A stretch of DNA of 64,000 nt from Patescibacteria group bacterium. GTDB taxonomy: Bacteria > Patescibacteriota > Patescibacteriia > UBA2196. The notes under the pieces were generated by a model. The model saw nothing but the letters and a program-made list of their open reading frames with translations, made no database searches and was not told the origin of the DNA. Both the position numbers and the translations under genes were made by a program. The stretch covers positions 55,868 to 119,867 of the forward strand of contig DAIUDD010000002.1 in NCBI GenBank assembly GCA_036845805.1, read 5' to 3'. Of this stretch, positions 5,823 to 42,172 are shown in pieces. How positions within the stretch are numbered: the first letter of the stretch is position 1; the number at the start of each line of letters is the position of its first letter.

Positions 5823-7700
5823 CTAAGATAGAACTGCTTTAATTCTTCTCACGCCGGCTGAACTGGCTTCTTCTTTAATAATTTTGAAAGCCCCGAGTTC
5901 GCCGGTATTTTTGACATGTGGCCCACCGCAAATTTCACAACTAAAATTTTCAGCTAAATTATTCGGGTCGCACACAGAATAAACTTTTACCTGATCGCCA
6001 TATTTATCAGCAAAGACGCCAATCGCACCTTTGGCTTTAGCTTCCGTGACAGTCATTTCTTCGCAAGTTACATCCATCTTCTTATTTATCATTTCATTAA
6101 CCAAATCTTCCGCTTGCTTAATCTGCTCCGCTGTCATTTTTTCACTATGGGAAAAATCAAACCGCATTCTCTCTTCGGTAATATTGGAACCTTTTTGATA
6201 AATATGAGGACCCAATACTTTGCGCAAAGCAGCATTCAATAAATGGGTGGCAGTATGATATTGGGTCACTTTTTCGGAATGGTCAGCCAGGCCGCCTTTA
6301 AATTTTCCGGCCGCGGCTGTGCGTGAAAGTTCCTGATGTTTTTGCATTTCAATATTAAAACCACTTTCATCAACTGCCAATCCTTTTTCTTTGGCCAACT
6401 CTTTAGTCAATTCCAAAGGAAAACCAAAACTTTGGAATAAATTAAATGCTACAATTCCCTTAATTTCTTTATCTCTGGTTGCTTCAGCAACCATCCCGCC
6501 ATGGCGGGATGAAAGCGGAGCTTCCAATTTCTTAGTTTCTTTTTCAAATTCCTTTATTCCCTCTTGCAACGTCTGAGTAAATTTTTCTTCCTCCACCTGT
6601 AAATTATCAAGCACAAATTTACGGCTACGATCTAATTCCGGATAAACATCATTCATTAAATTAATTACCACTGTCGCAATTTGGTGAGTAAAATTTTCTT
6701 TAATGCCAAGCAGGCGGCCATGGCGAATGGCACGACGAATTAATTTCCGCACCACATAGCCTTGGTCCACATTAGCGGGCGCAATACCATGATCATCGCC
6801 CATAATAAAAGTAACCGCCCGCAAATGATCAGCAATAATGCGCATCGATCTGATAGTCCCCTCCTTTTCAAGGAGGGGCCCATGCCCCGCAGGGGCAGAG
6901 GGGGTGGTTATGTATTTTTGCCCAGATAACTCTTCAATCTTTTGAATAATTGGTAAAAATAAATCTGTTTGATAATCATCATCCAAACCACTTATCACGG
7001 CTAAATTTCTTTCCAAGCCAGTGCCATTATCAATGTTTTTTTGATTGGCTGGTTTATATTTATTCTCCCCTATTTTTTCGTATTGCATTAAAACATCATT
7101 GCCAATTTCTACCCAGCGCTTGTCCGAGGGATCAAAAACTTTTGGCGCTGGTCCTTTTTTATCAACCCAATAAAACATCTCGGTGCACGGGCCGCAGGGG
7201 CCAGAATTGCCAGTTGGTTCCCACCAATTGTCTTTTTTGGGCAAAGATTTAATTCTATCTTGATCAATTCCGAGTTTTTTCCAAATTTCAATTGATTCAT
7301 CATCGCGTGGCGCATTTTCATCACCAGCAAAAACAGAGACGGCCAAAAATTTTTTATCCAAGCCAAGCTCCTTTGTAACAAACGCAAAAGTCATTTTCAA
7401 GGCTTCCTCTTTCCAATAATCTCCTATTGACCAATGACCGAGCATTTCAAAAAATGTGTGGTGAAAGCCGTCGCCGACTTCATCAATGTCACCAGTGCGA
7501 ACGCATTTTTGCGAATTAACTAGTCGCGCGCCAGCTGGATGTTTTTCGCCAAGCAAAAATGGCACGAGCGGGCTCATGCCGGCAGTGGTAAATAAAATTG
7601 AGGGATCATTTTCTGGAATTAAAGAAGCGCTCGGGATTTCTGCATGCCCATTTTTTTTAAAAAATTCAATGTATTTTTGCCGCAATTCTTTAGAAGTCAT
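5823..7700 (-). CDS. alaS: Alanyl-tRNA synthetase, short form (625 aa): catalytic, tRNA-recognition and editing domains present; no C-Ala domain
   Basis: N-terminal class II motifs, internal HTATHLLNAALRKVLGPHIYQKGSNITEERMRFDFSH editing-domain signature, and a metal-binding C..C.GGPHV site near the C-terminus. Confidence 0.9.
   Translation of the reverse strand: MTSKELRQKYIEFFKKNGHAEIPSASLIPENDPSILFTTAGMSPLVPFLLGEKHPAGARLVNSQKCVRTGDIDEVGDGFHHTFFEMLGHWSIGDYWKEEALKMTFAFVTKELGLDKKFLAVSVFAGDENAPRDDESIEIWKKLGIDQDRIKSLPKKDNWWEPTGNSGPCGPCTEMFYWVDKKGPAPKVFDPSDKRWVEIGNDVLMQYEKIGENKYKPANQKNIDNGTGLERNLAVISGLDDDYQTDLFLPIIQKIEELSGQKYITTPSAPAGHGPLLEKEGTIRSMRIIADHLRAVTFIMGDDHGIAPANVDQGYVVRKLIRRAIRHGRLLGIKENFTHQIATVVINLMNDVYPELDRSRKFVLDNLQVEEEKFTQTLQEGIKEFEKETKKLEAPLSSRHGGMVAEATRDKEIKGIVAFNLFQSFGFPLELTKELAKEKGLAVDESGFNIEMQKHQELSRTAAAGKFKGGLADHSEKVTQYHTATHLLNAALRKVLGPHIYQKGSNITEERMRFDFSHSEKMTAEQIKQAEDLVNEMINKKMDVTCEEMTVTEAKAKGAIGVFADKYGDQVKVYSVCDPNNLAENFSCEICGGPHVKNTGELGAFKIIKEEASSAGVRRIKAVLS
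6856..6912. repeat. Family-2 palindromic element (cccctccttttcaaggagggg ... cagagggggtggttat) inserted in-frame inside alaS
   Basis: Same hairpin plus ggggtggtta module as the intergenic copies at 7712-7801, 26577-26650 and 26781-26945; encodes the extra segment TPSAPAGHGPLLEKEGT just before the conserved RIIADHLRA block. Confidence 0.7.
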
Positions 7701-7711
7701 GTGGTGTTGTT

Positions 7712-7801
7712 AGTCCCCGCCTTATGAAGGCGGGGCCTCATGTTCCACCACCCTTGTGGTGAGTGGAACAGAGGGGGCGGTTAATAAGATCGCCGATAGG
7801 C
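7712..7801. repeat. Family-2 palindromic element, intergenic copy upstream of alaS
   Basis: gtccccgccttatgaaggcggggc shows compensatory changes relative to the cccctcc/ggagggg copies, so the stem is conserved; shares the 3-prime module ggttaataagatcgccgataggc with the 26577 copy. Confidence 0.7.
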
Positions 7802-7847
7802 AAAATAAATGTTATTTATATAATTTTTATTTTAACAAAAATTGACT

Positions 7848-7900
7848 AAAAAAGCAATTTTAAATATCAAAAAACCGCTTGTCTAACAAACGGTTTTTTG
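7848..7900. terminator. Bidirectional terminator-like hairpin (aaaaaccgcttgtctaacaaacggtttttt)
   Basis: Stem aaccg/cggtt flanked by an A-run and a T-run. Confidence 0.45.
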
Positions 7901-7924
7901 TCTTATCTTTCATTCGCCAACCAT

Positions 7925-8195
7925 TTTTATCTCAAGAGAGTTTGGTAGATAAAATTAATAATGATTGACGAGTGAAAGAAAGGAACTGGCTAAATTGTGA
8001 TATTCTCCGTTCCTTATTGTTTTTAAAACCCCAAAAAAGGGGTGCGAGCTCGGTATCCGGATCTGTGAATATTGGATACCTTCCTGAACTGTGTCTGGTA
8101 CTCGCGCCAGACAAGGGAAGTTCTCACGTCTATAACTTCCGAACGTAGTCATAGCTTACGGCGTATGACCGCCTTTTTAATAAGTCTCTGGTGTA
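7925..8195. ncRNA. Putative structured non-coding RNA at the 3-prime end of a high-GC island; strand and family unknown
   Basis: At least five perfect 6-7 bp stems within 270 nt (aaggaac/gttcctt, acccc/ggggt, ggtatcc/ggatacc, ggaagtt/aacttcc, gtcata/tatgac); one longer stem needs a U-G pair on the plus strand; no long ORF; no match to tmRNA, RNase P or SRP signatures that I can recognise. Confidence 0.25.
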
Positions 8196-8196
8196 T

Positions 8197-9003
8197 TTAA
8201 CCTCTTCGGCAATCCGAGGAGATCACCAGAAAAGATGTTTCTTCTGTGCCGTAGGCTGGAAAAAACACTGCTTTAGTTTCCCCTCTCCTTACTTGAGAAA
8301 CTGCAGTATTAATATCATATGGGGATTTCCACCCTCTGCGTTTCCGAACAAATCTATTAGGCCGAATAAACTTACCCGGACATTCGTGCCCAGATAATTC
8401 ATCCGTGCCTTCTTCGGAAACAACAACCACAACGTCGCAAGAACAGATTTTTTTCCCGTCGCTACTGATTGCAACGGCTCGGTCAAAATCGCTCTCGGCG
8501 TTTTTTGCGATTGACTTAACTGCTAAGGTGAGTCTCTCTAACAAAAAGCTCCGAGCCTCAATGTCATCCCAGCGAAATAGCAATGCCAAGACAACATCGG
8601 CATTGGTAATTGACCGAATTCTTCTGCCAATTACCTCGCATTGTGCGACGCCGGCTTTTCCTCGGTATTCCACCAAGTAGGCATCAATCGCACCAAAAAC
8701 ATTTGGCAACCCGTAGATATTGGCTAAATCTCCACGGATTAGCCAATCAGCCAACCCACTAGTGAGAGCCGCAAAAGATTTCTTTAGGAATCTGGTGACA
8801 ACCCCGTCCCACTGAAAGTGAGTGGTGTTAAACGGAAATACAATTTCCGCCGCATTCAACCATGCCTGTTTCCAGGACATCACGGCCGAATACCCAGCTC
8901 CAGTGGCTGGTCGTTTTTGAAGGTAATTTAAGGGATCTTTAATCCCAAAAACTTCCTCTAGCCGGTTGGCCACAAAGGCCAATTTTTTTTCTTCTAGATT
9001 CAT
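8197..9003 (-). CDS. Hypothetical protein (268 aa) in a high-GC island; no family recognised
   Basis: Long ORF with an AGGAGG RBS; local GC about 45-47% against about 33% genome-wide; contains a Cys/His cluster (CSCD...HECPG); structured leader (hairpins 9028-9042 and 9065-9101). Confidence 0.5.
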   Translation of the reverse strand: MNLEEKKLAFVANRLEEVFGIKDPLNYLQKRPATGAGYSAVMSWKQAWLNAAEIVFPFNTTHFQWDGVVTRFLKKSFAALTSGLADWLIRGDLANIYGLPNVFGAIDAYLVEYRGKAGVAQCEVIGRRIRSITNADVVLALLFRWDDIEARSFLLERLTLAVKSIAKNAESDFDRAVAISSDGKKICSCDVVVVVSEEGTDELSGHECPGKFIRPNRFVRKRRGWKSPYDINTAVSQVRRGETKAVFFPAYGTEETSFLVISSDCRRG

Positions 9004-9218
9004 AACTTCCTCCTAAGAAGTTTGTTCGGGAGCACTACTCCCGTTTGCCTGCTTGACCATCAAGCAGTATTTTGAATACTAAAATAATAATCAAAATACT
9101 GCCTGTGGTAATTTTTTAAAGGACTATTTTCTTCTCTTCTAAAACTTTCCAAAAAATGAAAAGTTTTAGTAAAGAGCCAAAGCAGCGGTGCATTGCTGCT
9201 TTGGCAAAAGCGTGTGGA

Positions 9219-9614
9219 TTACTCCGCATTCTGGAACACGCGTTCCAGAATGGCGAAATAATTTGACTTTTGGTCTCCACTCCCGATATATTGGGAGCAG
9301 ACAGCCACCCATTCGCCACCACCTCGGTTGGTGCACACGAGGTGGGCGTTAGAGGTGGCTGAGCCAAAAGTCAAGCTCAGCAGGTCTTGGGGCCGATAGC
9401 CCTTCCACCCGCCGAACTGGCCATCCAGAAATAAAACATTTTCTGAACGGTCTTCATAGGGGTCTACCACGACATCACGGTAGCCCCACGAGTTGACCGC
9501 GATCCACACGCGATCGATGGCAAAACATTTCTCCTCCTCACCTTGGGTGAGAAGGCGGCTCAACCTGCAGAGTTGCGACTCTGTAAGGAGCCTTGTTTCT
9601 TTTAAAAAACTCAT
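9219..9614 (-). CDS. Hypothetical protein (131 aa), same high-GC island
   Basis: ORF with a GGAG RBS 7 nt upstream of the ATG; high GC; co-directional with the 8197-9003 ORF. Confidence 0.5.
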   Translation of the reverse strand: MSFLKETRLLTESQLCRLSRLLTQGEEEKCFAIDRVWIAVNSWGYRDVVVDPYEDRSENVLFLDGQFGGWKGYRPQDLLSLTFGSATSNAHLVCTNRGGGEWVAVCSQYIGSGDQKSNYFAILERVFQNAE

Positions 9615-10146
9615 AATTTCTCCAATTTTTTAACCGACGCCCAATTGCGCCAGTAAACCAGTATGCTCTGGATTGGAGAATCTTGCCACCGCTTCTATTT
9701 CTTTTTTTAAGAAACAAAAGTGGTGGCAAAAAAAATTTTAAAGAACTTTTTTTCTATTGACTGTGGTGAAGACGATTTTCTTAGTAAGAGGCAGATCAAT
9801 AAACAATGTTTGTTAATATCCGCGTTACTAATGTCTCTCTTCTCCACCACGGTCCTTAGAAACAAAAAAGTCTTCTACTGTTCAAGAGAGAAGACCATAA
9901 TTAATAAATCTAATAAAAATTGACTTGTTGTAGGGCTCGCAGTGCCTACCAGACTGTCTCTCTTGTTTTAATCCTAAATTGTAAAGATTAAAATTTATCT
10001 CACATTTTTTATTTTGTATATCTTATTATAGCACACTTGTATAATTTTGTCAATAGATAGATTGTGTATAAATAAAAAAATTACCTAAAATTAGCTAAAT
10101 TAAAGACGTGATAAATCACGTCTCTACAACCATAATTATTACTTTT

Positions 10147-10180
10147 CCTTAATTTCTTAGTTTCTTAATTTCTCTATTTC
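10147..10180. repeat. Family-6 short repeat, T-rich orientation (ccttaatttcttagtttcttaatttctctatttc)
   Basis: Reverse complement shares 23 identical nt (agaaattaagaaactaagaaatt) with the copy at 12746-12777. Confidence 0.6.
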
Positions 10181-10184
10181 TTTT

Positions 10185-12740
10185 TCATCTCAGATCTCTT
10201 TCATGTGGTGGCGCTTCCACTCCCTCGCCCAACTTAGACCGCTCAAAAATTTCTTTTTCCACTTCGGCTTTAGGCCGACCATATTTAAGGCGGGAAAATT
10301 CACGCGCCGCATGAGCAATTTCGGGATTACCTTTAACCGGCGAGAAAGCTGCCATATTAAATGGCCGGGCGGCTTCGTTATTAATCATTAAACGCACATA
10401 AGCATTAAACTTTTCAATATTCATTAAATCATATTCATTAAAAACCGGCGCAAATTGTTTGGACATTACTTCGGTGTCTTCCACCCCAATCCGATAACAA
10501 ACCATGGTGCCGACATTGCCAAAAACAGCGTCTCTCACTTTAGTGTCATTATTTTTAACAAGCTGGCTGATAAATTGATGCGCCATAATCATATTCAGGC
10601 GATATTTTCTAGCTTCAGCTAAAATGGTGGCAATGGAATCAGTGACATAATTTTGAAACTCATCAATATATAAATAAAAATCATTTCTTTGGTTTTCTGG
10701 TACATCCGCGCGCGATAAGGCGGCCATCTGTAATTTGGAAACAAAAGTTAAGCCTAATAAATCACTATTAACTTCGCCAACTTTGCCTTTGGATAAATTA
10801 ACCAAAAGAATTTTCTTCTGATCCATGGCAGAGCGAATATCAAAACCAGAATGCGGCTGGCCAATAATATTTCGCATCATTTCATTTTCCACAAAACGAC
10901 CAGTTTTGGAAATCACATAGGAAAGCATGTCAGCGGCACTCGAACCGCGCTGGGATTGAGCATATTCTTTTTCCCAAAATGATTTAACTAATAAATCATG
11001 ACATTTAGAGAGTTTGTAATTACGAAATTCTTCATCGGTAAAAATCCGCGCGATTTCCACTAAAGTGCCAGGGTCTTTTTGATCTGACATTAAAAGCAAC
11101 ATGGCATTACGCATATAATGCTCAAACATCGGGCCAATCATGGACGGATCAGTGACTAATTTATAGAAAATGGCAATCATTTCCTGAACAGCAAAATCTT
11201 GCTCTTGGGGAGTTTGGGCATCCAACATATTAAGGCCAACCGGACGATCAATGTCTGAAGGGTCAAAATAAATCACATCTGCTAATCTTTCTTTGGGAAT
11301 GGCAGGCAAAATATCATCAATGCCGTTGCCGTGCGGATCAATATAGCAAACACCTTCGCCGTTTTGAATATCTTGTACCGCCATGTTAACCATTAAAGTG
11401 GACTTGCCTGTACCGGTCATCCCAATAATATACATGTGTCGGCGGCGATCGTCGCGTTGTAATTTAACAATAGTTTCTTTGCCGCGATAAATATTTTTGC
11501 CTAAGATAATTCCCTCCTCTGGCATATTGACTGGCGCTGGCGCTTTTCTGGCCCCCAACCAATAAATATTAGGGGTGGGGCAAGAGGGTAAGGGAAAATG
11601 AAACAAAGAAGCCAACTCTTCGGTGTTTAAAATAAAGGCAGACTCGGCTCTAAATTGCCGATGAATTGAATCGGAAATGGTGCGCTCTGATTTTTTTACT
11701 AAAGCCTTAAAACCATTGCCATACTCATAGATATTATATTGGCCAAAAGAATTTAAAATATTTTTTAGATTAATTTCGGAACCGCCCTCAAAAGCGCTGG
11801 CCACCACTAAACGCAAATTAACTTGGAGCGCGCCTTTGGAAGATTTTTCTTCCATTGATTTAATTAATTCCTGATCAAATGGCGTTAATTCAGCGTTTTT
11901 ATTAAGCTGATTTTTAGGTTTTTCACCAGCAGTCATCATAGAATGCAAAGAACCAATACTGCCAAAAGTGCCCTCGGCTAATTTATCATACCAAGACTTC
12001 TGGTTTAAACTTTTTAGAACTGTTTCTATTTTTCTGCCAGACATTATTTCTTTAACTGCTTTTCGGCCACGCTTATGCCATTCTTTATGGATGGGTCTAA
12101 TAATTAATTGGATCAACGCTCCTTCTTTTGAACTAAACTTAGACAAACTGTTGGTCGTGGCGTTTAAAGGATCAACTTCCATTTTGCGGTAAGTTTTAAT
12201 TGGCAATACGTCGGGCCGGGTTAGAAGTAAATTAGCAGCCGAAGCATTACCGGTCGGCGTGAATAAATTATAATCCTCGCTAATTTCGGTTTGGGCATGA
12301 GGATATTGAGCTTGAATTTGTTGTTCAACAAATTGGGCTAGATAGGCGGGTACTACCACATAGAAATAAACCAGTTCGCGCTGAGCTACAATTTCTAAAG
12401 AAATCTGATCGTGGCGACCATAAAGCCAAGTATGCCAACCCTTAAGTGGTTTAATGGCAGCAAAGGCCGCCCATAAATTTTCCGCCCAAGAAATTTGTTC
12501 CTGAATACGATTAGGGCCGGTGTTTTGATTTTGAAGCTCGTCTTTACCGGCCGCTGCTTCTTTGGGCACAGTAATTAATAAAATTATTGGGCGAAACTCG
12601 GCGGGTAATTTATAGTGACTTCTCATCCAAGCGCGCCAGAGGTATAAAACAACAATGATTAAAATAATTACGCCAATCAAAAATAACCCAACCACCAAAG
12701 CGGGGTTATTAAAAATTAATGAGGAAAAAGAAGAAGTCAT
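10185..12740 (-). CDS. Membrane-anchored P-loop ATPase of the VirD4/TraD/TrwB (type IV coupling protein)-like superfamily
   Basis: N-terminal TM helix; Walker A IIGMTGTGKST; Walker B-like LYIDEFQNY; large cytoplasmic domain; start set at internal Met (MTSSFSS, 12740) because the upstream part of the ORF runs through a repeat. Confidence 0.65.
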   Translation of the reverse strand: MTSSFSSLIFNNPALVVGLFLIGVIILIIVVLYLWRAWMRSHYKLPAEFRPIILLITVPKEAAAGKDELQNQNTGPNRIQEQISWAENLWAAFAAIKPLKGWHTWLYGRHDQISLEIVAQRELVYFYVVVPAYLAQFVEQQIQAQYPHAQTEISEDYNLFTPTGNASAANLLLTRPDVLPIKTYRKMEVDPLNATTNSLSKFSSKEGALIQLIIRPIHKEWHKRGRKAVKEIMSGRKIETVLKSLNQKSWYDKLAEGTFGSIGSLHSMMTAGEKPKNQLNKNAELTPFDQELIKSMEEKSSKGALQVNLRLVVASAFEGGSEINLKNILNSFGQYNIYEYGNGFKALVKKSERTISDSIHRQFRAESAFILNTEELASLFHFPLPSCPTPNIYWLGARKAPAPVNMPEEGIILGKNIYRGKETIVKLQRDDRRRHMYIIGMTGTGKSTLMVNMAVQDIQNGEGVCYIDPHGNGIDDILPAIPKERLADVIYFDPSDIDRPVGLNMLDAQTPQEQDFAVQEMIAIFYKLVTDPSMIGPMFEHYMRNAMLLLMSDQKDPGTLVEIARIFTDEEFRNYKLSKCHDLLVKSFWEKEYAQSQRGSSAADMLSYVISKTGRFVENEMMRNIIGQPHSGFDIRSAMDQKKILLVNLSKGKVGEVNSDLLGLTFVSKLQMAALSRADVPENQRNDFYLYIDEFQNYVTDSIATILAEARKYRLNMIMAHQFISQLVKNNDTKVRDAVFGNVGTMVCYRIGVEDTEVMSKQFAPVFNEYDLMNIEKFNAYVRLMINNEAARPFNMAAFSPVKGNPEIAHAAREFSRLKYGRPKAEVEKEIFERSKLGEGVEAPPHERDLR

Positions 12741-12745
12741 AAACG

Positions 12746-12777
12746 AGAAACTAGAAATTAAGAAACTAAGAAATTGA
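12746..12777. repeat. Family-6 short repeat, A-rich orientation (gagaaactagaaattaagaaactaagaaattgag)
   Basis: Inverted relative to the 10147 copy; its 17-nt core gaaactaagaaattgag is identical to 26536-26552. Confidence 0.6.
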
Positions 12778-12877
12778 GGGTTTATTGTTTTCGCCCTTAA
12801 TTTCTCCCGCCCGCCTTGCAAGCCAGAGTGCTGTGGGCAGGTTATTTCTGTGTTTCTTTATTTCGTTTTTTTATTAT

Positions 12878-13348
12878 TTATTTCTCTATTTCAAGTATGC
12901 GGTCCGCTTTAATCTTGGCTTCCTGTTCCACAAAAAATCGATTTAGACCAGGAATAATTTTTAGCCATTTTTTGATCAAATTAAAGACTCGGCGAAACGT
13001 AATTTTAGCTGTTTCAATTAATTCAATAATTTTTTTAGCGGTTTGTTCGCCTTCGGCTTTAAAAATTTTTTGCTTTTCCGGCGAGAGTGAAAAATACAAA
13101 TCACCCAAGTCTTCTTCTAAGACTGCTTCAATGTTTTGATGCAGAGGTGTTTTACTAGAGTCAATTCCTGGTGCACCTACTCCCAGATCACTAACGAGCG
13201 GTAAATTTTTTTCTCCAATTTTTTCGACTTGTTCTAAAGGTGGTGCTTCCATGGCCGAGGAAACTGAGATTTCCGATGATTCAAAATCAGACACCCTTTC
13301 CGGTGTTTTAATTTTTTCTATTTTGCCTGGTTGAATAATAGTATCCAC
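12878..13348 (-). CDS. Hypothetical acidic protein (156 aa), upstream of and co-directional with the VirD4-like ATPase
   Basis: ORF only; no family recognised. Confidence 0.45.
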   Translation of the reverse strand: MDTIIQPGKIEKIKTPERVSDFESSEISVSSAMEAPPLEQVEKIGEKNLPLVSDLGVGAPGIDSSKTPLHQNIEAVLEEDLGDLYFSLSPEKQKIFKAEGEQTAKKIIELIETAKITFRRVFNLIKKWLKIIPGLNRFFVEQEAKIKADRILEIEK

Positions 13349-13410
13349 ATAATTTATTTTAGCATAAAAACAAAAAAGATGGTATAATTGATTTAGAATT
13401 AATTAGTTCT

Positions 13411-14340
13411 ATGTGGCAAAATTTGTTTATTTTGATTGTTTCTCTTTTTTTAATTGTCAAAGGCGCCATGCTCTCAACTAAACACGCCGCGCGCCTAGCA
13501 AAAAATTTTCAAGTTTCCAAATATGTAATTGGTTTTATTGTGGTAGCTATTATTTCCATTTTGCCTGAAACTTTTGTGGCCATTAATTCTTCTTTGGAGG
13601 GCGTACCCGCTTTTGGCTTGGGCGCTCTTTTTGGCTCGAACGTAGCCGACCTAACACTTGTTTTTGTTATTATCATTGCCCTTTCTGGTAGAAATATTAA
13701 AGTAGAAAGTAAAATTTTAAAAAACAACATAATTTATCCTTTCCTTTTTTTAATACCTTTAATTTTAGGGCTCGACGGCTATTATTCCCGCTTGGAAGGT
13801 GGCGCTCTTATAGTCGCCGGCGCCATTTTCTATTACTTAGCCTATAAAAAGGGTCAACGCCATCACCAAACAGAAAAAAATCATAATGGAATTTATAAAA
13901 ATGCGCTTTTTTTAATTTTGGGTATGGCCATTTTACTTATTGGCGCTCATTTTACAGTCACCTCGGCCACCGATTTAGCCCACGATCTTAAAATTACGCC
14001 GATTTTAATTGGCATGTTAATTGTTGGTCTGGGCACCACTATTCCAGAAACAATTTTTTCCTTGGAAGCGGTTAAAAACGATAATGATTCTCTGGCGGTT
14101 GGCGATATTTTGGGTACGGTTTTAGCCGATGCGACAGTGGTCGTTGGTTTGATTGCAATTATTAAACCATTCTTTTTTCCCATAAATATTATATATGTGA
14201 CTGGCGTCTTTATGCTTTTGGCCGCTTTCATGGTGGCTTATTTTATGCGTACTGGTAAGACTATTTCCAAAAAAGAATCTGTACTTTTATTTTTCTTTTG
14301 GTTAATTTTTATTTTTACTGAATATTTTATCAATCACTAA
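13411..14340 (+). CDS. Ca2+/cation antiporter (CaCA / YrbG family)
   Basis: Two alpha-repeat motifs (GLGALFGSNVADL and GLGTTIPETIFSLEAVK) in a 10-TM-like polytopic protein. Confidence 0.8.
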   Translation: MWQNLFILIVSLFLIVKGAMLSTKHAARLAKNFQVSKYVIGFIVVAIISILPETFVAINSSLEGVPAFGLGALFGSNVADLTLVFVIIIALSGRNIKVESKILKNNIIYPFLFLIPLILGLDGYYSRLEGGALIVAGAIFYYLAYKKGQRHHQTEKNHNGIYKNALFLILGMAILLIGAHFTVTSATDLAHDLKITPILIGMLIVGLGTTIPETIFSLEAVKNDNDSLAVGDILGTVLADATVVVGLIAIIKPFFFPINIIYVTGVFMLLAAFMVAYFMRTGKTISKKESVLLFFFWLIFIFTEYFINH

Positions 14341-20858: not shown

Positions 20859-20876
20859 AAAATAATAAATAATAAT

Positions 20877-21376
20877 TTCCAAGATACAATTTCCCCGCCC
20901 GCATCGCCTTGCAAAGCATGGCGGACAGGCAATTTCCAAATAAAATTCAAATTTCAAATTATAAATTATTTTTCTCTTTTTTAATAATAATTGATGATAA
21001 TATATTTTTTAATTCTATAGCTTCTTGTTTTAGATTCTGCATTCGAGGAGAAAATTCAGGATTAGCTTCTTCTATAATTTCTAACCAATGTAAGGTTTCT
21101 TTGCATTCTTTGCGAGCTATTTTCATGCGATGAATAAAATCTTTGTTACCTAAGGCGTCATTAGCTTCCCGATAATTAGCTCCTATAGAGCCAGCGGATC
21201 TAATTATTTGACTAATTAAAGGTCTGTTAATTTCATCTTTTGATAATTCCCTACACAACCTAACAGTTCTTTTAGCAAAATCAGTAGTTCTTTGTTCTAA
21301 ATTGTATCCGGAATAATCCATAAATTTTATTTTGGATATTGTTATTTGAAATTTATTTGGAAATTGTATCTTGGAA
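20877..21376. mobile_element. Cassette bounded by perfect 18-bp inverted repeats (ttccaagatacaatttcc / ggaaattgtatcttggaa) carrying a four-helix-bundle protein gene
   Basis: 18/18 inverted repeats at 20877-20894 and 21359-21376 verified by eye; right end followed by tandem ggaaattg units. Confidence 0.5.
20959..21321 (-). CDS. Four-helix-bundle protein (TIGR02436-type, the family found in 23S rRNA intervening sequences)
   Basis: SIGANYREANDA...KDFIHRMKIARKECKETLHWLEII is the signature of this family. Confidence 0.75.
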   Translation of the reverse strand: MDYSGYNLEQRTTDFAKRTVRLCRELSKDEINRPLISQIIRSAGSIGANYREANDALGNKDFIHRMKIARKECKETLHWLEIIEEANPEFSPRMQNLKQEAIELKNILSSIIIKKEKNNL

Positions 21377-21388
21377 ATTGGAAATTGT

Positions 21389-21676
21389 CTACTCACCCTT
21401 AAATCCTAACTCTTTTTCCGGTGCCATCGCTTCTTCTATTTTACCAAAATTATTTTCATATTTTTCTAAATTTTCTTTAAGCGCCGCAATCATCCTTTTC
21501 ATGTGCGCTGGGTTGGTAATAATTTTAGCGGCCACACGGCCAGATGGTGGTAAAACATTCATGTAGGTTAAAACAAATTCCTCTTTGCTATGAGAAACTT
21601 GCATAGCATTGGCATATTCGCCACCAGGAAAATTATCTTGGATTTTAATTTCTTGAGGTTGGTTTGGATTAGGCAT
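21389..21676 (-). CDS. DUF3467-family protein
   Basis: GEYANAMQVSHSKEEFVLTYMNV...AKIITNPAHMKRMIAALKENLEKYE closely matches the DUF3467 consensus as I remember it. Confidence 0.55.
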   Translation of the reverse strand: MPNPNQPQEIKIQDNFPGGEYANAMQVSHSKEEFVLTYMNVLPPSGRVAAKIITNPAHMKRMIAALKENLEKYENNFGKIEEAMAPEKELGFKGE

Positions 21677-22130: not shown

Positions 22131-22241
22131 AAAATAACATTAAAATTGTCATCCTGAACTTGTTTCAGGATCTCTCTATATAAAATTTTTTTTAAAATAA
22201 TGAGATGCCGAAATAAATTCGGCATGACAAAACATATAGTA

Positions 22242-26532: not shown

Positions 26533-26567
26533 TTAGAAACTAAGAAATTGAGAAATTAGAAACTAAG
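26533..26567. repeat. Family-6 short repeat, A-rich orientation (gttagaaactaagaaattgagaaattagaaactaag)
   Basis: 17-nt core identical to 12761-12777; inverted partner at 27653-27690. Confidence 0.6.
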
Positions 26568-26576
26568 GGTTCCAAG

Positions 26577-26650
26577 CTCCCCTCCTTTTCAAGGAGGGGC
26601 GATAGAGGTGATAGCCTCATCGGGGTGGTTAATAAATCGCCGATAGGCGG
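26577..26650. repeat. Family-2 palindromic element
   Basis: cccctccttttcaaggagggg + ggggtggttaataaatcgccgataggcgg. Confidence 0.7.
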
Positions 26651-26742
26651 ATAGTTTCCCTTTATTTCTCTTTTTCTTTATTTCTTAATTACTTTTTCAT
26701 TTATCCCCAACTTTTTTAATCTATTTCCATTATACAAAACAA

Positions 26743-26769
26743 TTAGCACTCGTGTCAAGCGAGTGCTAA
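26743..26769. promoter_or_regulatory. CIRCE operator (HrcA binding site) ttagcactc-N9-gagtgctaa
   Basis: Perfect match to the CIRCE consensus TTAGCACTC-N9-GAGTGCTAA, upstream of hrcA-grpE. Confidence 0.85.
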
Positions 26770-26780
26770 ATGGATTAGCA

Positions 26781-26945
26781 GTCCCCTCCTTTTGAAGGAG
26801 GGGCCTTAAGCCCGAAGGGCTAAGGTGGTGGTTATGGTATTTAGAATTAATTTTATCTTAATGTTATAACCACCCCCGTCTCTGCTTCGCAGAGTCGCCC
26901 GTTAATGTTTGCCGTTGTGGCAAACATTAACTTTAAAAGGAGGGG
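26781..26945. repeat. Composite family-2 palindromic elements (two hairpin modules plus the perfect hairpin gttaatgtttgcc-gttgt-ggcaaacattaac)
   Basis: cccctccttttgaaggagggg ... ggtggtggttat and, inverted, ataaccacccccgtctctg. Confidence 0.65.
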
Positions 26946-27490: not shown

Positions 27491-27652
27491 AATTGTCATC
27501 CTGAACTTGATTTAGGATCTCCCAGAATAAGTTTGTCTCAGAGTAAGGGGGTGCTAAAATAAATTCAGTATAAAAATATAAATAAAAATGGACAGGTCGC
27601 GACCTGTCCCTACATCACACTTCATTATTCTCTGTTTATTACTTTTTTGCCA

Positions 27653-27690
27653 CCCTTAATTTCCAATTTCTTAATTTCTAGTTTCTATTG
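27653..27690. repeat. Family-6 short repeat, T-rich orientation
   Basis: Reverse complement reads caatagaaactagaaattaagaaattggaaattaaggg; overlaps the rnhA stop codon. Confidence 0.55.
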
Positions 27691-28091
27691 TCAATCGCCT
27701 CATTTACCAGCTTATCTGCCAGTTTATTTTGTTCGCGAGGAACATGTTTAAAAATTATCTTTTTAAAACTTTGGCGTAAATTAAAAATTTTAATAAAACT
27801 ATCTTGAAAATCAGGATTTTTTAATTTATATTGGCCATTAATTTGTTTGCAAACAAGTTCGGAATCCAAGCGCACCTCGACTTCAGTGACGCCAAGTTTT
27901 TTTGCTTCTTCCAAGCCCAAAACCACAGCTTTATATTCTGCTTGATTATTGGTTGTTTCGCCAATATATTTTTTGTGTAGATACAAAGGTTTGGTTAAAT
28001 TTTTGGCATCAAAAATCACCGCGCCAATGCCAGCGGGCCCTGGGTTGTTACGAGCGCCACCGTCAGTATAAATGATAAGTTTTTTATTCAT
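27678..28091 (-). CDS. rnhA: Ribonuclease HI
   Basis: IYTDGGARNNPGPAGIG...NNQAEYKAV...HVPREQNKLADKLVNEA (DEDD catalytic residues in the canonical order). Confidence 0.85.
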   Translation of the reverse strand: MNKKLIIYTDGGARNNPGPAGIGAVIFDAKNLTKPLYLHKKYIGETTNNQAEYKAVVLGLEEAKKLGVTEVEVRLDSELVCKQINGQYKLKNPDFQDSFIKIFNLRQSFKKIIFKHVPREQNKLADKLVNEAIDNRN

Positions 28092-38468: not shown

Positions 38469-41288
38469 TTATTTGCCATGACAATGCTTAAATTTAATTG
38501 GTGAGCCATCTGGTTTAGTCGCTCCGCATGGGCAGGGGTCATTACGGCCGACTTTTTCTTTATTCACAGTTAATTTGGAGTTTACATCTACTTGTTGCTG
38601 ATCGCTAAAAACTTGTCGCTGACTGGCGGTTGGCGAAACAGAAACTTTAAAAATAGAATAGACAACTTGCCTTCTGATATTTTCCAACAACTCTTTAAAC
38701 AGGCGGTGAGCTTGATTTTTATATTCCACCAGTGGATCTTTCTGGCCATAACCCACGAGGCCAATACCGGTTCTCATGTGATCCATGGCATCAATATGCT
38801 CGACCCACAAAGTATCAATCGAGCGCAAAAGAATGGTGGTCTCGATTAAATTCATGGGCTTTATTTTTTCGCCAAATTGCTTTTTAAGATTTTCATCATT
38901 ATTAATTTTGTTTTCAAGTTCCGTGTATTGCTCTGCAGCTAACTGATAAAAATAGTTAATCAATTTTTCTTTTAAATTATTGCCCTCAATTTCTTTATTT
39001 CTTAATTGCTCTATTTCCAGTGTTTCTTTGGCAGAAAAGATCGTGTTCATAACCTCGAAAATCTCTTTTAGATTCCACTCGCTTTCATGTTCGCTTGAGG
39101 TGTGAAAATTAACCACATTCACAATTTCATCTTTAACATAATCTAAAACAATTTCCCTTAATTTCTTTATTTCTTTATTTCTTAATTTCTCATTATCTTG
39201 TCCGCGTAAGTCAGCGTTATCTTCCGCGTTAGTCCGCGCTAATAATAAGATTTCATTTCTTTTGCGATAGATGGTTTCGCGATGCTTATTAATCACGTCA
39301 TCATATTCAACCAAGTGTTTTCTAATGTCAAAATTATGTCCTTCAACTTTCATCTGCGCTTTTTCAATGGAATTAGAAATTAATTTATTTTCAATGGGCA
39401 TGCCGTCAGGCAAACCCAAAGTGTTCATTAAAGATTTTAATCTTTCGCCGCCAAAAATGCGCATCAAATCATCTTCCATGGAAACAAAAAATTGTGATTC
39501 ACCCGAATCCCCCTGACGGCCAGCACGACCGCGCAATTGATTATCAATCCGTCGCGACTCATGACGTTCCGAACCAATCACACATAAGCCCCCCGCGGCC
39601 TTAACCTTTTCTTGTTCTGACAAATCAGGCGGATTGCCACCAAGAATAATGTCGACACCGCGGCCGGCCATATTGGTAGCAATAGTGACGGCACCTAATT
39701 TTCCGGCTTGAGCGATAATTTCGGCCTCTTTTTCGTGTTGTTTAGCATTTAAAACTTGGTGTGGCACACCAGCACGAGATAATAACTCAGATAAATATTC
39801 ATTATTTTCAATAGAAATGGTACCCACTAAAACTGGTTGGCCTTTTTCGTGTCTCTTTTTAACTTCTTGCACAATAAAATTATATTTTTCCTCAACAGTT
39901 TTTAAAATTACATCGGATTTATCTAGGCGCACCATGGGTTTATTAGTCGGAATAATAATAACATCTAAATTATAAATCTTAGCAAACTCCTCGCCCTCGG
40001 TCGCAGCCGTGCCGGTCATGCCGGATAATTTTTGATACATGCGAAAATAATTTTGAAAAGTAATGGTGGCCATGGTAACTGATTCTTGCTTAATTTGCAC
40101 CCCTTCCTTGGCTTCAATGGCTTGATGCAAACCATCAGAATAGCGCCGACCAAGCATTAAGCGGCCAGTAAACTCGTCGACAATAATAATTTCGCCGTCT
40201 TTAGTCACATAATCACGGTCTTTTTTAAATAAAACGCGAGCACGCAGCGCCTGTTCAACATGGTGAACATCGCGAATGCCTCGATCAGTATAAATATTTT
40301 CTACACCTAACCATTTTTCCATTTTTTTAATACCCGCTTCTGTCAAAGTGGCGCTTTTCATTTTTTCATCAATATTGTAATCAGTGTTTTCTTCCAGACG
40401 GGAAACTAATTGAGAAAATTGCCGATATTTATCAGTTGGTTCGGAATCAGGCGCGGAAATAATTAAAGGAGTGCGCGCCTCATCAATTAAAATTGAATCA
40501 ACTTCATCGACAATAACAAAATGCAAAGAACGCTGAACTTTATAATTCAAACTTTGTACCATGTTATCACGCAAATAATCAAAGCCAAATTCATTATTAG
40601 TACCATAAGTAATATCAGCCCCATAAGCTAGTCGCCGCGGCACTGGTAATAAATAATCTTCCACTATTTTATACCCACCCACCACATCGCGTTTTTTATC
40701 TAATTCATCTTTTTTATCATTTTGAATTTCTAAATTTGAATTTGTTTCTGATTTCGGATTTTGAATTTCTGATTTATCTTGATAAAGATAGGCTATTTCA
40801 TGATTTAAACAACCAGTGCTTAAACCCAAATAAGCATAAACTTGCCCCATCCAAACAGCATCGCGACGAGCTAAATAATCATTAACGGTAATCACATGGA
40901 CTCCGCGGCCAGTTAAGGCATTTAAATAAACGGCAGCGGTAGCAGCCAAGGTTTTACCTTCACCGGTTTTCATTTCCGAAATATTGCCTTCATGTAAAAC
41001 CATGCTAGCCAAGAGCTGCACATCATAATGTCGCTGGCCCAAAGTTCTTTTAGCGGCCTCGCGTACCAAGGCAAAACATTCCGGTAAAATTTCGTTTAAA
41101 ATATTTTGTTGCTCGGCATATTCCTTGTCGGCTAGTTTTTCTTTAAATTCTTGGGTTCGCTGCTTAAATTCGGACGCAGTTAAACTCTGGATTTTTTGTT
41201 CCAGAGCATTGATTTCCTCAACTCGTTTTTGTAGACGATTGATAACTTTTTCATTAGCATCGCCAAATATTTTTGATAAAAGAGACAT
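38469..41288 (-). CDS. secA: Preprotein translocase ATPase SecA
   Basis: DEAD-like motor motifs, full length, C-terminal zinc site CPCGATKPDGSPIKFKHCHGK; contains AT-rich low-complexity in-frame inserts. Confidence 0.9.
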   Translation of the reverse strand: MSLLSKIFGDANEKVINRLQKRVEEINALEQKIQSLTASEFKQRTQEFKEKLADKEYAEQQNILNEILPECFALVREAAKRTLGQRHYDVQLLASMVLHEGNISEMKTGEGKTLAATAAVYLNALTGRGVHVITVNDYLARRDAVWMGQVYAYLGLSTGCLNHEIAYLYQDKSEIQNPKSETNSNLEIQNDKKDELDKKRDVVGGYKIVEDYLLPVPRRLAYGADITYGTNNEFGFDYLRDNMVQSLNYKVQRSLHFVIVDEVDSILIDEARTPLIISAPDSEPTDKYRQFSQLVSRLEENTDYNIDEKMKSATLTEAGIKKMEKWLGVENIYTDRGIRDVHHVEQALRARVLFKKDRDYVTKDGEIIIVDEFTGRLMLGRRYSDGLHQAIEAKEGVQIKQESVTMATITFQNYFRMYQKLSGMTGTAATEGEEFAKIYNLDVIIIPTNKPMVRLDKSDVILKTVEEKYNFIVQEVKKRHEKGQPVLVGTISIENNEYLSELLSRAGVPHQVLNAKQHEKEAEIIAQAGKLGAVTIATNMAGRGVDIILGGNPPDLSEQEKVKAAGGLCVIGSERHESRRIDNQLRGRAGRQGDSGESQFFVSMEDDLMRIFGGERLKSLMNTLGLPDGMPIENKLISNSIEKAQMKVEGHNFDIRKHLVEYDDVINKHRETIYRKRNEILLLARTNAEDNADLRGQDNEKLRNKEIKKLREIVLDYVKDEIVNVVNFHTSSEHESEWNLKEIFEVMNTIFSAKETLEIEQLRNKEIEGNNLKEKLINYFYQLAAEQYTELENKINNDENLKKQFGEKIKPMNLIETTILLRSIDTLWVEHIDAMDHMRTGIGLVGYGQKDPLVEYKNQAHRLFKELLENIRRQVVYSIFKVSVSPTASQRQVFSDQQQVDVNSKLTVNKEKVGRNDPCPCGATKPDGSPIKFKHCHGK

Positions 41289-42133: not shown

Positions 42134-42172
42134 ACGGGATTCCTCGTCGCTTCACTCCTCGGAATGACAACC
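42134..42172. repeat. Family-1 palindromic element half-site that supplies the gatB start codon
   Basis: acgggattcctcgtcgcttcactcctcggaATGACAACC; the ATG of gatB is the atg of ggaatgaca. Confidence 0.55.

What the first reader, a model, noticed from the sequence alone, without database searches (positions are those of the whole stretch)
10147..12777. VirD4/TraD-like coupling-protein ATPase flanked by inverted copies of a short A/T-rich repeat
The 852-aa membrane-anchored P-loop ATPase (Walker A GMTGTGKST; DEFQN box) and the small acidic ORF upstream of it are bracketed by family-6 repeats in inverted orientation (10147-10180 and 12746-12777). The two repeats share a 23-nt identical core, agaaattaagaaactaagaaatt. 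A type-IV-coupling-protein homolog in a minimal genome may serve DNA uptake or host interaction. The inverted-repeat bracket suggests the module is, or was, mobile.
Basis: partly seen in the sequence, partly recalled or inferred. Interest (0 to 1): 0.5.

Follow-up and report, generated by a model that had tools for sequence, protein, structure and literature searches.

The report
Core CPR secretion-type ATPase, not mobile
The gene is a conserved, vertically inherited membrane ATPase of candidate-phyla-radiation bacteria, related to type IV secretion motors, and the "inverted repeats" around it are arms of two separate A/T-rich intergenic hairpin elements of a common kind, not the ends of a mobile element.

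Summary
An exact 23-nt core (27 nt at 96%) lies inverted at 10147-10173 and 12753-12779, on either side of an 851-aa P-loop ATPase on the minus strand. The acidic ORF lies outside this bracket.

The mobility reading fails.
- Each copy is one arm of a local intergenic element built from tandem AGAAATWA octamers. Element A separates the acidic ORF from the ATPase. Element B follows the ATPase stop codon.
- Further copies sit in the hrcA 5' UTR and after another gene.
- The same octamer arrays occur in intergenic DNA of unrelated bacteria.
- The ATPase and its acidic partner hold the same housekeeping position (corA-X-ATPase-alaS-infA-rps-rpoA) in five CPR lineages.
- There is no transposase and no target duplication.

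The variable DNA is the adjacent 2.4-kb island (7701-10184). Tiny GC-rich inserts with 8-bp target duplications sit inside the A/T arrays.

The parts
10185..12740 (-). 851-aa ATPase CDS. It has an N-terminal TM helix (about residues 13-37), a VirB4-like N-domain (residues 40-405, which is 11526-12623) and a P-loop motor domain (about residues 410-835). Walker A is at 11400-11423 and DEFQN at 10650-10664.
12878..13348 (-). 156-aa acidic ORF, the conserved upstream partner of the ATPase. It has a GTG start and lies outside the repeat bracket.
   Evidence: Present directly upstream of the ATPase in L003-L006 at 46-50% identity, with an invariant C-terminal WLxxIPG..F.EQEAKIKAD motif. It has 72 homologues, the named ones all from CPR bacteria, and no Pfam family.
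12741..12870 (-). Intergenic element A (read on the minus strand). Parts: outer A-rich arm 12842-12865; 36-nt GC-rich insert 12806-12841; inner arm 12794-12805; loop 12783-12793; T-rich right arm 12741-12782, ending at the ATPase ATG.
   Evidence: RNA fold -35.3 kcal/mol, z -3.3. In relative L123 the right arm is 41/42 identical while flanking coding DNA is 71-80% identical. A 52-nt segment of the left arm, including the GC insert, is absent from L123.
10076..10184 (-). Intergenic element B, directly after the ATPase stop codon.
   Evidence: z -2.1; period 8, 4.4 copies.
10025..10053 (-). Consensus sigma-70-type promoter (TTGACA-17-TATAAT with TG) that starts the next transcription unit just downstream of element B.
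   Evidence: 12/12 match, the only perfect site in 7600-13500.
7701..10024 (-). Strain-specific island between the ATPase and alaS. It holds two ORFs (9219-9614 and 8197-9003) with Shine-Dalgarno sites. GC is 0.44 against about 0.36 elsewhere.
   Evidence: Composition. No Pfam, NCBIfam, PADLOC or PHROG hit. The 268-aa ORF has only 11 hits among 1.8 billion representatives. In relatives this slot is empty (L003), holds ClpB (L005, L176) or holds other ORFs (L006).
26535..26693 (-). Element C, of the same repeat family. Its arms are 26656-26693 and 26535-26572, around a GC-rich structured insert. It lies between the CIRCE-bearing hrcA promoter (CIRCE 26736-26762) and the hrcA start codon (26529).
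   Evidence: Fold -56.1 kcal/mol, z -5.7. HrcA Pfam hit.
27655..27679 (-). Element D, a lone A-rich array of the same family (AAATTAAGAAATTGGAAATTAAGGG) directly after the stop codon of gene 27678-28091.

Best explanation
The ATPase is a chromosomal, vertically inherited core gene of ABY1-type CPR bacteria. Its nearest named relatives are Kuenenbacteria, at 71% identity.

It is a membrane-anchored, probably hexameric P-loop translocation motor of the VirB4/VirD4 (type IV secretion) ATPase clade. The architecture is one TM helix, a VirB4-like N-domain (Pfam DUF8128), and a motor domain whose sequence is closest to coupling proteins. It is co-transcribed with a conserved small acidic partner from the 62-nt divergent promoter region at 13349-13410.

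The two 'bracketing' repeats are unrelated to mobility. They are the T-rich arm of an intercistronic hairpin element (A) just upstream of the start codon, and the A-rich array of a transcript-end element (B) just after the stop codon. Both belong to a family of A/T-rich tandem-octamer (AGAAATWA) arrays that populate intergenic regions here and in many other bacteria.

I infer, without direct evidence, that these elements act in the RNA as intercistronic or 3'-end hairpins that set transcript boundaries, stability or relative translation, much as REP-type palindromes do.

Shown: the anatomy, the family membership, the synteny, the non-neutral conservation of the right arm, and the recurrence of the motif elsewhere.

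Inferred: hexamer formation, the substrate, co-transcription, and the RNA-level role of the arrays.
For: Local partners and folds of elements A, B and C.

Family copies at hrcA and after gene 27678-28091.

Distribution in the window: 5-6 of about 9 loci lie in the 10% of the window that is intergenic.

Same arrays elsewhere: identical 20-23-nt arrays occur at gene ends in Kuenen-, Buchanan- and Microgenomates genomes, and in intergenic DNA of Bacteroidales, Vibrio and Chitinophagaceae, often as hairpins. The exact 23-mer occurs in 51 metagenome contigs with GC from 0.20 to 0.57.

Relatives: GAAAT-type arrays are almost all intergenic in relatives and lie at several intergenic regions.

Synteny: corA-acidic ORF-ATPase-(variable)-alaS-infA-rpsM-rpsK-rpsD-rpoA is conserved in L003-L006 and L176.

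Homologues: more than 3600, at 50-71% identity.

Composition: the ATPase is not compositionally different from its surroundings.

Conservation: the right arm is 41/42 identical in a relative whose flanking genes are 71-80% identical.

Literature: VirD4-type homologues occur in 2,918 of 3,035 Patescibacteria genomes, and only 148 of 5,713 lie near virB4 (PMC12102498).
Against: The two flanking arms are more alike (26/27) than the arms within either element. Their RNA duplex (-37.8 kcal/mol) is the strongest matched 5'/3' flank pair among 60 genes. A gene-specific relation is therefore not excluded.

Element B is only weakly palindromic (z -2.1).

No expression data exist, so the hairpin or terminator role is an inference.

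The high conservation of the right arm could reflect homogenisation among repeat copies rather than function.

Only 64 kb of the genome was available, so the genome-wide copy number is unknown.
Confidence: 0.72

Rival explanations
1. The ATPase is, or was, a mobile cassette bounded by terminal inverted repeats, like a composite transposon or a MITE-bracketed module.
For: A 27-nt, 96% inverted repeat flanks exactly one gene. Distant full-length homologues (22-29% identity) occur on Firmicutes, Streptomyces and archaeal plasmids and in Bacillus phages. A second gene in the window, the accessory 23S_rRNA_IVP gene at 20959-21321, is also flanked by inverted arrays and is absent from relative L004.
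Against: The slot and neighbours are the same in five lineages at 63-71% identity. There is no transposase or recombinase. The 8 nt outside the two arms differ (TTACTTTT against GTTTATTG), so there is no target duplication. Each arm belongs to its own local element. The motif is generic. GC content matches the surroundings.
Confidence: 0.03
2. The T-rich 5' leader and the complementary A-rich 3' trailer of the ATPase mRNA pair with each other. This would close the 2.6-kb transcript into a loop, competing with the local hairpin A. It would be a gene-specific control of stability or translation.
For: The duplex is -37.8 kcal/mol over about 35 nt. It ranks first in both directions among 60 x 60 flank combinations. 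The leader arm is 41/42 conserved in a relative. The IVP gene shows a similar 5'/3' complementarity of -40 kcal/mol.
Against: Six of 3540 unmatched flank pairs are equally strong, giving roughly 0.1 after 60 tests. Co-transcriptional folding favours the local hairpin. Relatives L003 and L005 lack a complementary trailer. There are no expression data.
Confidence: 0.1
3. The inverted repeats are recombination sites of an invertible segment, a phase-variable orientation switch for the ATPase gene.
For: The inverted-repeat length (27 nt) is in the range seen for invertons (own knowledge). The repeat is exact over 23 nt.
Against: No invertase or recombinase gene was identified among the window ORFs searched. 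Three independently assembled contigs carry the same orientation and identical sequence. Segments of 2.6 kb that hold a whole conserved gene are atypical for invertons.
Confidence: 0.03
4. This concerns origin rather than function. The octamer arrays may be footprints of repeated insertion and excision of tiny GC-rich palindromic elements that duplicate 8 bp of target. On this view the similarity of neighbouring arrays is a by-product.
For: Three GC-rich inserts of 35-36 nt are flanked by 8-bp direct repeats. The insert at 20895-20929 is flanked by GGAAATTG (8/8) and has an uninterrupted paralogous site at 21352-21372. The insert at 26866-26901 is flanked by TTAATGTT (8/8). The insert at 12806-12841 is flanked by TAATTTCT/TTATTTCT (7/8) and is absent from relative L123. 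The array period in this genome is also 8.
Against: No excision footprint was observed directly. Relatives have period-7 arrays. Identical arrays occur in phyla where such elements were not looked for. This does not explain the strong conservation of the right arm.
Confidence: 0.2

Closest known systems
VirD4-type coupling-protein (T4CP) homologues of Patescibacteria (PMC12102498, Microb Genom 2025)
   Same: Near-universal CPR proteins detected with T4CP profiles, usually encoded far from virB4 and without a relaxase. NCBI names close homologues of this protein 'type IV secretion system DNA-binding domain-containing protein'.
   Different: The paper treats them as VirD4 homologues. The passages of the paper I read (term search only) do not mention the VirB4-like N-domain, the conserved acidic partner, or the fixed corA/alaS neighbourhood seen here.
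TrwB / VirD4 / DotL coupling proteins
   Same: Membrane-anchored P-loop motor. Best sequence matches in the PDB are TrwB at E 3e-6 and DotL at 2e-5. The fold match to TrwB has TM 0.55-0.58 normalised to the target. A helical insertion lies between Walker A and Walker B.
   Different: This protein has an extra 366-aa N-domain between the TM helix and the motor. It has one rather than two TM helices. It is not linked to a relaxase or to Mpf genes. It falls far below the NCBIfam family cut-offs.
VirB4 / TrwK (R388) T4SS ATPase
   Different: About 10% sequence identity. The TIGR00929 score is 26 bits against a cut-off of 643. The protein has its own TM helix. No VirB3, VirB6 or VirB8 genes lie nearby.
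REP/BIME-type intercistronic palindromes of enterobacteria, and Correia/NEMIS-type elements (own knowledge)
   Same: Imperfect palindromes placed between cistrons and at transcript ends, repeated around the genome and able to fold in the mRNA.
   Different: The arms here are A/T-rich tandem octamers rather than GC-rich unique sequence. The copy number is unknown. No RAYT-type transposase was seen. The same array sequences recur across phyla.

Membership tests
Type IV coupling protein (VirD4/TraG/TraD/TrwB) | P-loop NTPase domain of the T4CP type (Walker A, Walker B, family profiles) | tested here: met
   Pfam T4SS-DNA_transf scores 28.7 bits (cut-off 20.1), TrwB_AAD_bind 30.7 (20.5) and TraG-D_C 28.5 (22). 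TrwB is the best PDB sequence hit.
Type IV coupling protein (VirD4/TraG/TraD/TrwB) | Architecture of an N-terminal TM anchor directly followed by the nucleotide-binding and all-alpha domains | tested here: not met
   A 366-aa alpha/beta N-domain (residues 40-405) lies between the single TM helix and the motor.
Type IV coupling protein (VirD4/TraG/TraD/TrwB) | Curated family score (NCBIfam TraD / VirD4-like models) | tested here: not met
   SXT_TraD scores 48.9 against a cut-off of 366. conju_CD1115 scores 40.7 against 250.
Type IV coupling protein (VirD4/TraG/TraD/TrwB) | Genetic linkage to a relaxase and/or mating-pair-formation genes | tested here: not met
   The neighbours are corA, cysS, alaS, infA, rps genes and rpoA, here and in five relatives. 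No T4SS family was found among the 26 other window ORFs scanned against Pfam.
VirB4 ATPase | VirB4-type N-terminal domain fold | tested here: met
VirB4 ATPase | Sequence membership (TIGR00929 VirB4_CagE / Pfam CagE_TrbE_VirB) | tested here: not met
   26.2 bits against a cut-off of 643. No Pfam VirB4-family hit.
VirB4 ATPase | Encoded beside VirB3, VirB6 or VirB8-type membrane components | tested here: not met
   None in the window or in the relatives' loci. The rest of the genome could not be examined.
Patescibacterial DUF8128 / T4CP-homologue family | PF26449 N-domain plus T4CP C-terminal domains, with high identity to CPR proteins | tested here: met
   Precomputed Pfam hits on the identical protein. 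The best 120 hits are at 51-100% identity, and the named ones are from CPR bacteria.
HerA/FtsK translocases | HerA-type central domain | tested here: inconclusive
   DUF87 scores 24.1 against a cut-off of 23.2, over 52 residues around Walker A only. HerA PDB hits are at E 0.004-0.014 and fold TM is 0.4-0.5. This is superfamily-level similarity only.
Transposon or MITE-bracketed mobile module | Terminal inverted repeats with a flanking target-site duplication | tested here: not met
   The inverted repeat is present, but the 8 nt outside the arms differ: TTACTTTT against GTTTATTG.
Transposon or MITE-bracketed mobile module | Presence/absence or positional polymorphism among relatives, and an element-encoded recombinase | tested here: not met
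   The position is the same in five lineages. The only gene inside is the ATPase.
REP-like repeated intergenic palindromes | Imperfect palindromes confined to intergenic regions, in many copies per genome | tested here: inconclusive
   Four intergenic loci in 64 kb (A-D) fold better than shuffles. The genome-wide count could not be obtained because the source genome is absent from the scanned collections.

The most novel reading that the evidence does not exclude
The DUF8128 proteins counted as 'coupling proteins' in CPR genomes may not be coupling proteins at all. They may be stand-alone motors with VirB4 architecture (TM helix, VirB4 N-domain, ATPase). Together with the conserved acidic partner, such a motor could form a chromosomally fixed translocation device unlinked to the T4SS.
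Probability: 0.12. Interest if true: 0.6.

Novelty: new member of a known kind. Interest (0 to 1): 0.3.

Why it matters
The finding removes a false lead: this is not a mobile T4SS module in a minimal genome. It also adds one useful refinement. The near-universal 'VirD4-type' homologues of Patescibacteria, whose role is open (the S. epibionticum homologue was reported non-essential, PMC12102498), have a VirB4-like N-domain. In ABY1-type lineages they also have a fixed acidic partner and a fixed genomic address. That points to a housekeeping translocation function rather than conjugation.

The A/T-rich octamer-array hairpins recur across phyla and deserve a systematic census. So do the 35-nt GC-rich inserts with 8-bp duplications that land in the arrays. 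Both are cheap to study and could explain much of the intergenic repeat structure of these small genomes.

Tried and rejected
- Rfam (gathering threshold on the whole window; E-value mode on 7600-13000) and tRNA/tmRNA scans found nothing meaningful.
- AAGGG/AAGGA at the arm ends as a Shine-Dalgarno site: rejected. No consistent start codon follows, and most genes here lack an SD anyway.
- The arrays as promoters: rejected. Good sigma-70 promoters lie beside the arrays, not in them.
- The arrays as 'stops in all six frames' insulators: rejected as a rule. The right arm of element A leaves the ATPase frame open back to TTG at 12821.
- The arrays as a CPR-specific conserved signal or DNA-uptake sequence: rejected. 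The same 20-23-mers occur in Bacteroidales, Vibrio and other intergenic arrays. Density in the window is only about 1 per 8 kb.
- TIGR or CRISPR-like arrays: there are no spacers, and no Tas or Cas genes were identified among the ORFs searched.
- The genome contigs and metagenome-contig scans did not return the source genome, so no genome-wide copy count was possible.
- A search for the 3' flank of the nearest relative failed. The best C-terminal fragment found was only 76% identical and of the ClpB-type lineage.
- PADLOC and PHROGs gave nothing for the island ORFs or the acidic ORF. No att-like direct repeats bound the island.
- IMG/VR holds only distant relatives (25-32% identity) of the ATPase.
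- A search of the held papers for the repeat sequence found nothing.
- The afdb50 fold library was unavailable.
Full report
**What is in the sequence**

The region holds one long minus-strand ORF, with ATG at 12740 and TGA at 10185-10187, encoding 851 aa. It has one N-terminal hydrophobic helix, Walker A GMTGTGKS (11400-11423) and a DEFQN box (10650-10664).

No such match occurs in 100 shuffles. It extends to a 27-nt inverted repeat at 96% (I14).

The acidic 156-aa ORF (12878-13348, minus strand) is not inside the bracket. The upstream repeat copy lies between that ORF's stop codon and the ATPase start codon.

**What the repeats are**

The repeat is a tandem octamer, (AGAAATWA)n, ending in AAGG(G). 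Each flanking copy is part of a local intergenic element.

- **Element A (12741-12870).** Read on the minus strand, it consists of:
  - an A-rich arm;
  - a 36-nt GC-rich insert;
  - the rest of the A-rich arm, ending in AAGGG;
  - a 13-nt loop;
  - CCCTC followed by a T-rich arm that ends 6 nt before the ATG.

  It folds at -35.3 kcal/mol, z -3.3.
- **Element B (10076-10184).** It starts 4 nt after the stop codon. It has the A-rich array, a small hairpin (10104-10123) followed by a T-rich run, and a degenerate T-rich tract. The fold z is -2.1. A perfect TTGACA-17-TATAAT promoter with a TG extension follows at 10053-10025 on the same strand. The ATPase transcript therefore most likely ends within element B.
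- **Element C (26535-26693).** This third full element lies between the CIRCE operator and promoter of hrcA (CIRCE 26736-26762) and the hrcA start codon. It encloses a GC-rich structured insert and folds with z -5.7.
- **Element D (27655-27679).** A lone A-rich array follows the stop codon of gene 27678-28091.

Look-alike copies inside secA (38985-39010, 39157-39190) and alaS (6459-6476) are in frame and encode K/E/I-rich peptide.

The 'inverted bracket' is therefore the right arm of element A plus the left arm of element B. Any two neighbouring palindromic elements of one family will produce such a bracket.

**The motif is generic**

A scan of one genome per species for AAGAAAYWAAGAAATTRAGG returned 101 stretches.

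- The CPR hits (two Kuenenbacteria, a Buchananbacteria, a Microgenomates and two Patescibacteria-group genomes) lie at gene ends or between genes. Several form full palindromes.
- Equally many hits are intergenic octamer arrays in Bacteroidales, Vibrio, Chitinophagaceae and others. They often have an inverted partner and neighbouring arrays of other octamers.
- The exact 23-mer occurs in 51 metagenome contigs with GC from 0.20 to 0.57, again in intergenic arrays.
- In relatives of this organism, GAAAT-type arrays (there with period 7) are almost entirely intergenic. They lie at several intergenic regions, including both sides of the ATPase operon and downstream of alaS.

**The gene is not mobile**

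The identical protein lies on several independently assembled contigs with identical surroundings.

In five lineages at 63-71% protein identity the order is dnaJ ... dus-cysS-corA-[acidic ORF]-ATPase-(variable slot)-alaS-405-aa ORF-infA-rpsM-rpsK-rpsD-rpoA-rplQ-rplM-rpsI.

The ATPase GC content (0.38) matches the window. No recombinase lies nearby. The 8 nt outside the two arms differ, so there is no target duplication.

What does vary is the slot between the ATPase and alaS.

- In this window it is a 2.4-kb island (7701-10184) with GC 0.44.
- The island has its own consensus promoter and two ORFs with strong Shine-Dalgarno sites.
- The ORFs match no family in any library searched.
- The 268-aa ORF has only 11 hits among 1.8 billion representative proteins.
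- Relatives have nothing in this slot, or ClpB, or other ORFs.

**Is the bracket more than coincidence?**

The two arms flanking the ATPase are more alike (26/27) than the arms within either element. As RNA they would form a -37.8 kcal/mol duplex.

In an all-against-all test of 60-nt 5' and 3' flanks of 60 genes, this is the best matched pair and ranks first in both directions. However, six of 3540 unmatched pairs are as strong, which gives roughly 0.1 after multiple testing.

A close relative (L122/L123) has the acidic ORF at 82% amino-acid identity and flanking coding DNA at 71-80% nucleotide identity. It retains the right arm at 41/42 and the loop plus right arm at 51/54. Its left arm lacks 52 nt that are present in the window. 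The relative's shorter element still folds, with z -2.7.

The right arm is therefore not evolving neutrally. Whether that reflects function as a leader or hairpin, or homogenisation among repeat copies, cannot be decided here. Long-range 5'-3' pairing remains a low-probability rival.

**What the ATPase is**

More than 3600 homologues were found. The best 120 are at 51-100% identity, and those that carry names are from CPR/Patescibacteria, typically 'type IV secretion system DNA-binding domain-containing protein'. Their precomputed domains are PF26449 (DUF8128) plus T4CP families.

- **Sequence profiles.** T4SS-DNA_transf, TrwB_AAD_bind and TraG-D_C pass their Pfam cut-offs, and DUF87/HerA barely does. 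All NCBIfam TraD/VirD4/VirB4 models are missed by large margins. A profile of 20 family members finds TrwB (E 3e-6) and DotL first in the PDB, then HerA. PADLOC mad8 (E 3.5e-18) and PHROG 5156 (E 2e-85, full length) also match.
- **Full-length model.** The AlphaFold model (pLDDT 77) matches TrwK/VirB4 of R388 best over its full length (E 7e-12, low TM because of domain orientation). The motor domain matches the VirB4 C-domain (TM 0.65), the DndH C-domain (0.62) and TrwB (0.55-0.58), with TM normalised to the target.

The layout is therefore one TM helix, a VirB4-type N-domain, and a VirB4/VirD4-clade motor. This is VirB4-like in architecture and T4CP-like in motor sequence.

Distant full-length relatives (22-29% identity) occur in Bacillus phages and on Firmicutes, Streptomyces, haloarchaeal and Sulfolobus plasmids. 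IMG/VR has only remote ones.

The 2025 survey of Patescibacteria T4SS reports VirD4-type homologues in 2,918 of 3,035 genomes. Only 148 of 5,713 lie near virB4, relaxases are rare, and the S. epibionticum homologue is non-essential (PMC12102498). This protein fits that class.

No T4SS, pilus or competence partner was found among the window's other ORFs. Those identified include SecA, DnaE, RecJ, POR, GatB, HrcA, AckA, FtsW, MiaA and glycosyltransferases.

**The acidic partner**

It lies directly upstream of the ATPase in every relative examined. It has an invariant C-terminal segment and 72 detectable homologues, the named ones from Uhr-, Falkow- and related CPR bacteria. It matches no Pfam family. 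Its function is unknown. I infer that it works with the ATPase.

**Mechanism proposed**

Shown:
- a conserved two-gene unit in a housekeeping neighbourhood;
- a membrane-anchored motor of the T4SS ATPase clade;
- intergenic hairpin-forming arrays on both sides.

Inferred:
- the unit is transcribed from the divergent 62-nt region at 13349-13410;
- element A modulates the ratio or stability of the two cistrons;
- element B, with its small hairpin, ends the transcript ahead of the next promoter;
- the protein forms a hexamer that moves DNA or protein at the membrane, independently of conjugation.

**Verdict**

The ATPase is a known kind of CPR protein, with an under-appreciated VirB4-like N-domain. 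The repeats are a generic intergenic array. Interest as posed is low to moderate.

Noticed in passing
window 20895-20929, 12806-12841, 26866-26901: Three GC-rich palindromic inserts of 35-36 nt sit inside A/T-rich arrays and are flanked by 8-bp direct repeats: GGAAATTG 8/8, TAATTTCT/TTATTTCT 7/8, and TTAATGTT 8/8. The first has an uninterrupted paralogous 'empty site' at 21352-21372. The second is absent from relative L123. They look like minimal mobile elements that make 8-bp target duplications, which equals the period of the octamer arrays.
   Followed up: partly
window 6855-6917, 7705-7800, 26576-26650, 26780-26842: A GC-rich structured repeat family: AGTCCCC[T/G]CCTT-loop-AAGG[A/C]GGGGC, then a variable hairpin, then GGGG[T/C]GGTTA. 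Eight of 18 predicted pairs show compensatory changes. One copy lies in frame inside alaS, where the protein has 13 extra residues relative to three orthologues. This recalls Rickettsia palindromic elements.
   Followed up: partly
window 6478-6520: A second in-frame insertion in alaS (PLSSRHGGMVAEAT), encoded by the GC-rich palindrome CATCCCGCCATGGCGGGATG. It lies right next to an AGAGATAAAGAAATTAAGGG octamer stretch. L006 has a similar insert at the same site.
   Followed up: partly
window 7701-10184: A strain-specific island between the ATPase and alaS. It has GC 0.44 and a perfect sigma-70 promoter (10053-10025). About 150 nt of non-coding sequence follows, ending in a terminator-like hairpin (about 9865-9900) with no Rfam match. 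Two ORFan genes with strong Shine-Dalgarno sites follow, whereas most genes in the window lack one.
   Followed up: partly
window 20859-21400: A 23S_rRNA_IVP-family gene (20959-21321) lies between the DUF3467 gene and dnaJ. Relative L004 has only a 74-nt spacer at that position. The gene is flanked by inverted A/T-rich arrays of 39-48 nt (duplex about -40 kcal/mol). It is therefore an accessory gene with the same kind of 'bracket' as the ATPase.
   Followed up: partly
window 26736-26762: A perfect CIRCE operator (TTAGCACTC-N9-GAGTGCTAA) overlaps a TTGACA-18-TATAAT promoter upstream of hrcA, which heads a gene run that includes dnaJ. The 160-nt element C lies in the predicted 5' UTR.
   Followed up: partly
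window 38985-39190 (secA): Two direct copies of the octamer array lie in frame in the SecA wing/scaffold domain. That domain spans 252 residues against a 200-position profile, which suggests a repeat-derived K/E-rich expansion.
   Followed up: no
window 22144-22183, 27491-27530, 44473-44512, 28094-28137/42134-42177, 27590-27617/61429-61460 and others: Several further families of GC-rich palindromic repeats (TGTCATCCTGAAC...GGATGACA, TGTCATTCCGAGGAG..., GGACAGGTCGCGACCTGTCC) lie in intergenic regions. Some abut or overlap start codons, for example GGAATGACA at 42164.
   Followed up: no
loci L008-L086 and L125-L175 (Bacteroidales, Vibrio, Chitinophagaceae and other contigs): Intergenic tandem-octamer arrays (TTAAGAAA, AAGTCTTA, CGTAAATC, CAAAGTT and others) are widespread outside CPR. 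They are often paired as long hairpins with periodic arms, and I found no description of them in the held papers.
   Followed up: partly
window 10188-12740 (protein): The motor domain matches PADLOC mad8, a component of the MADS defence system, at E 3.5e-18. That is stronger than any Pfam T4CP model. The protein also matches the uncharacterised phage family PHROG 5156 over its full length.
   Followed up: no
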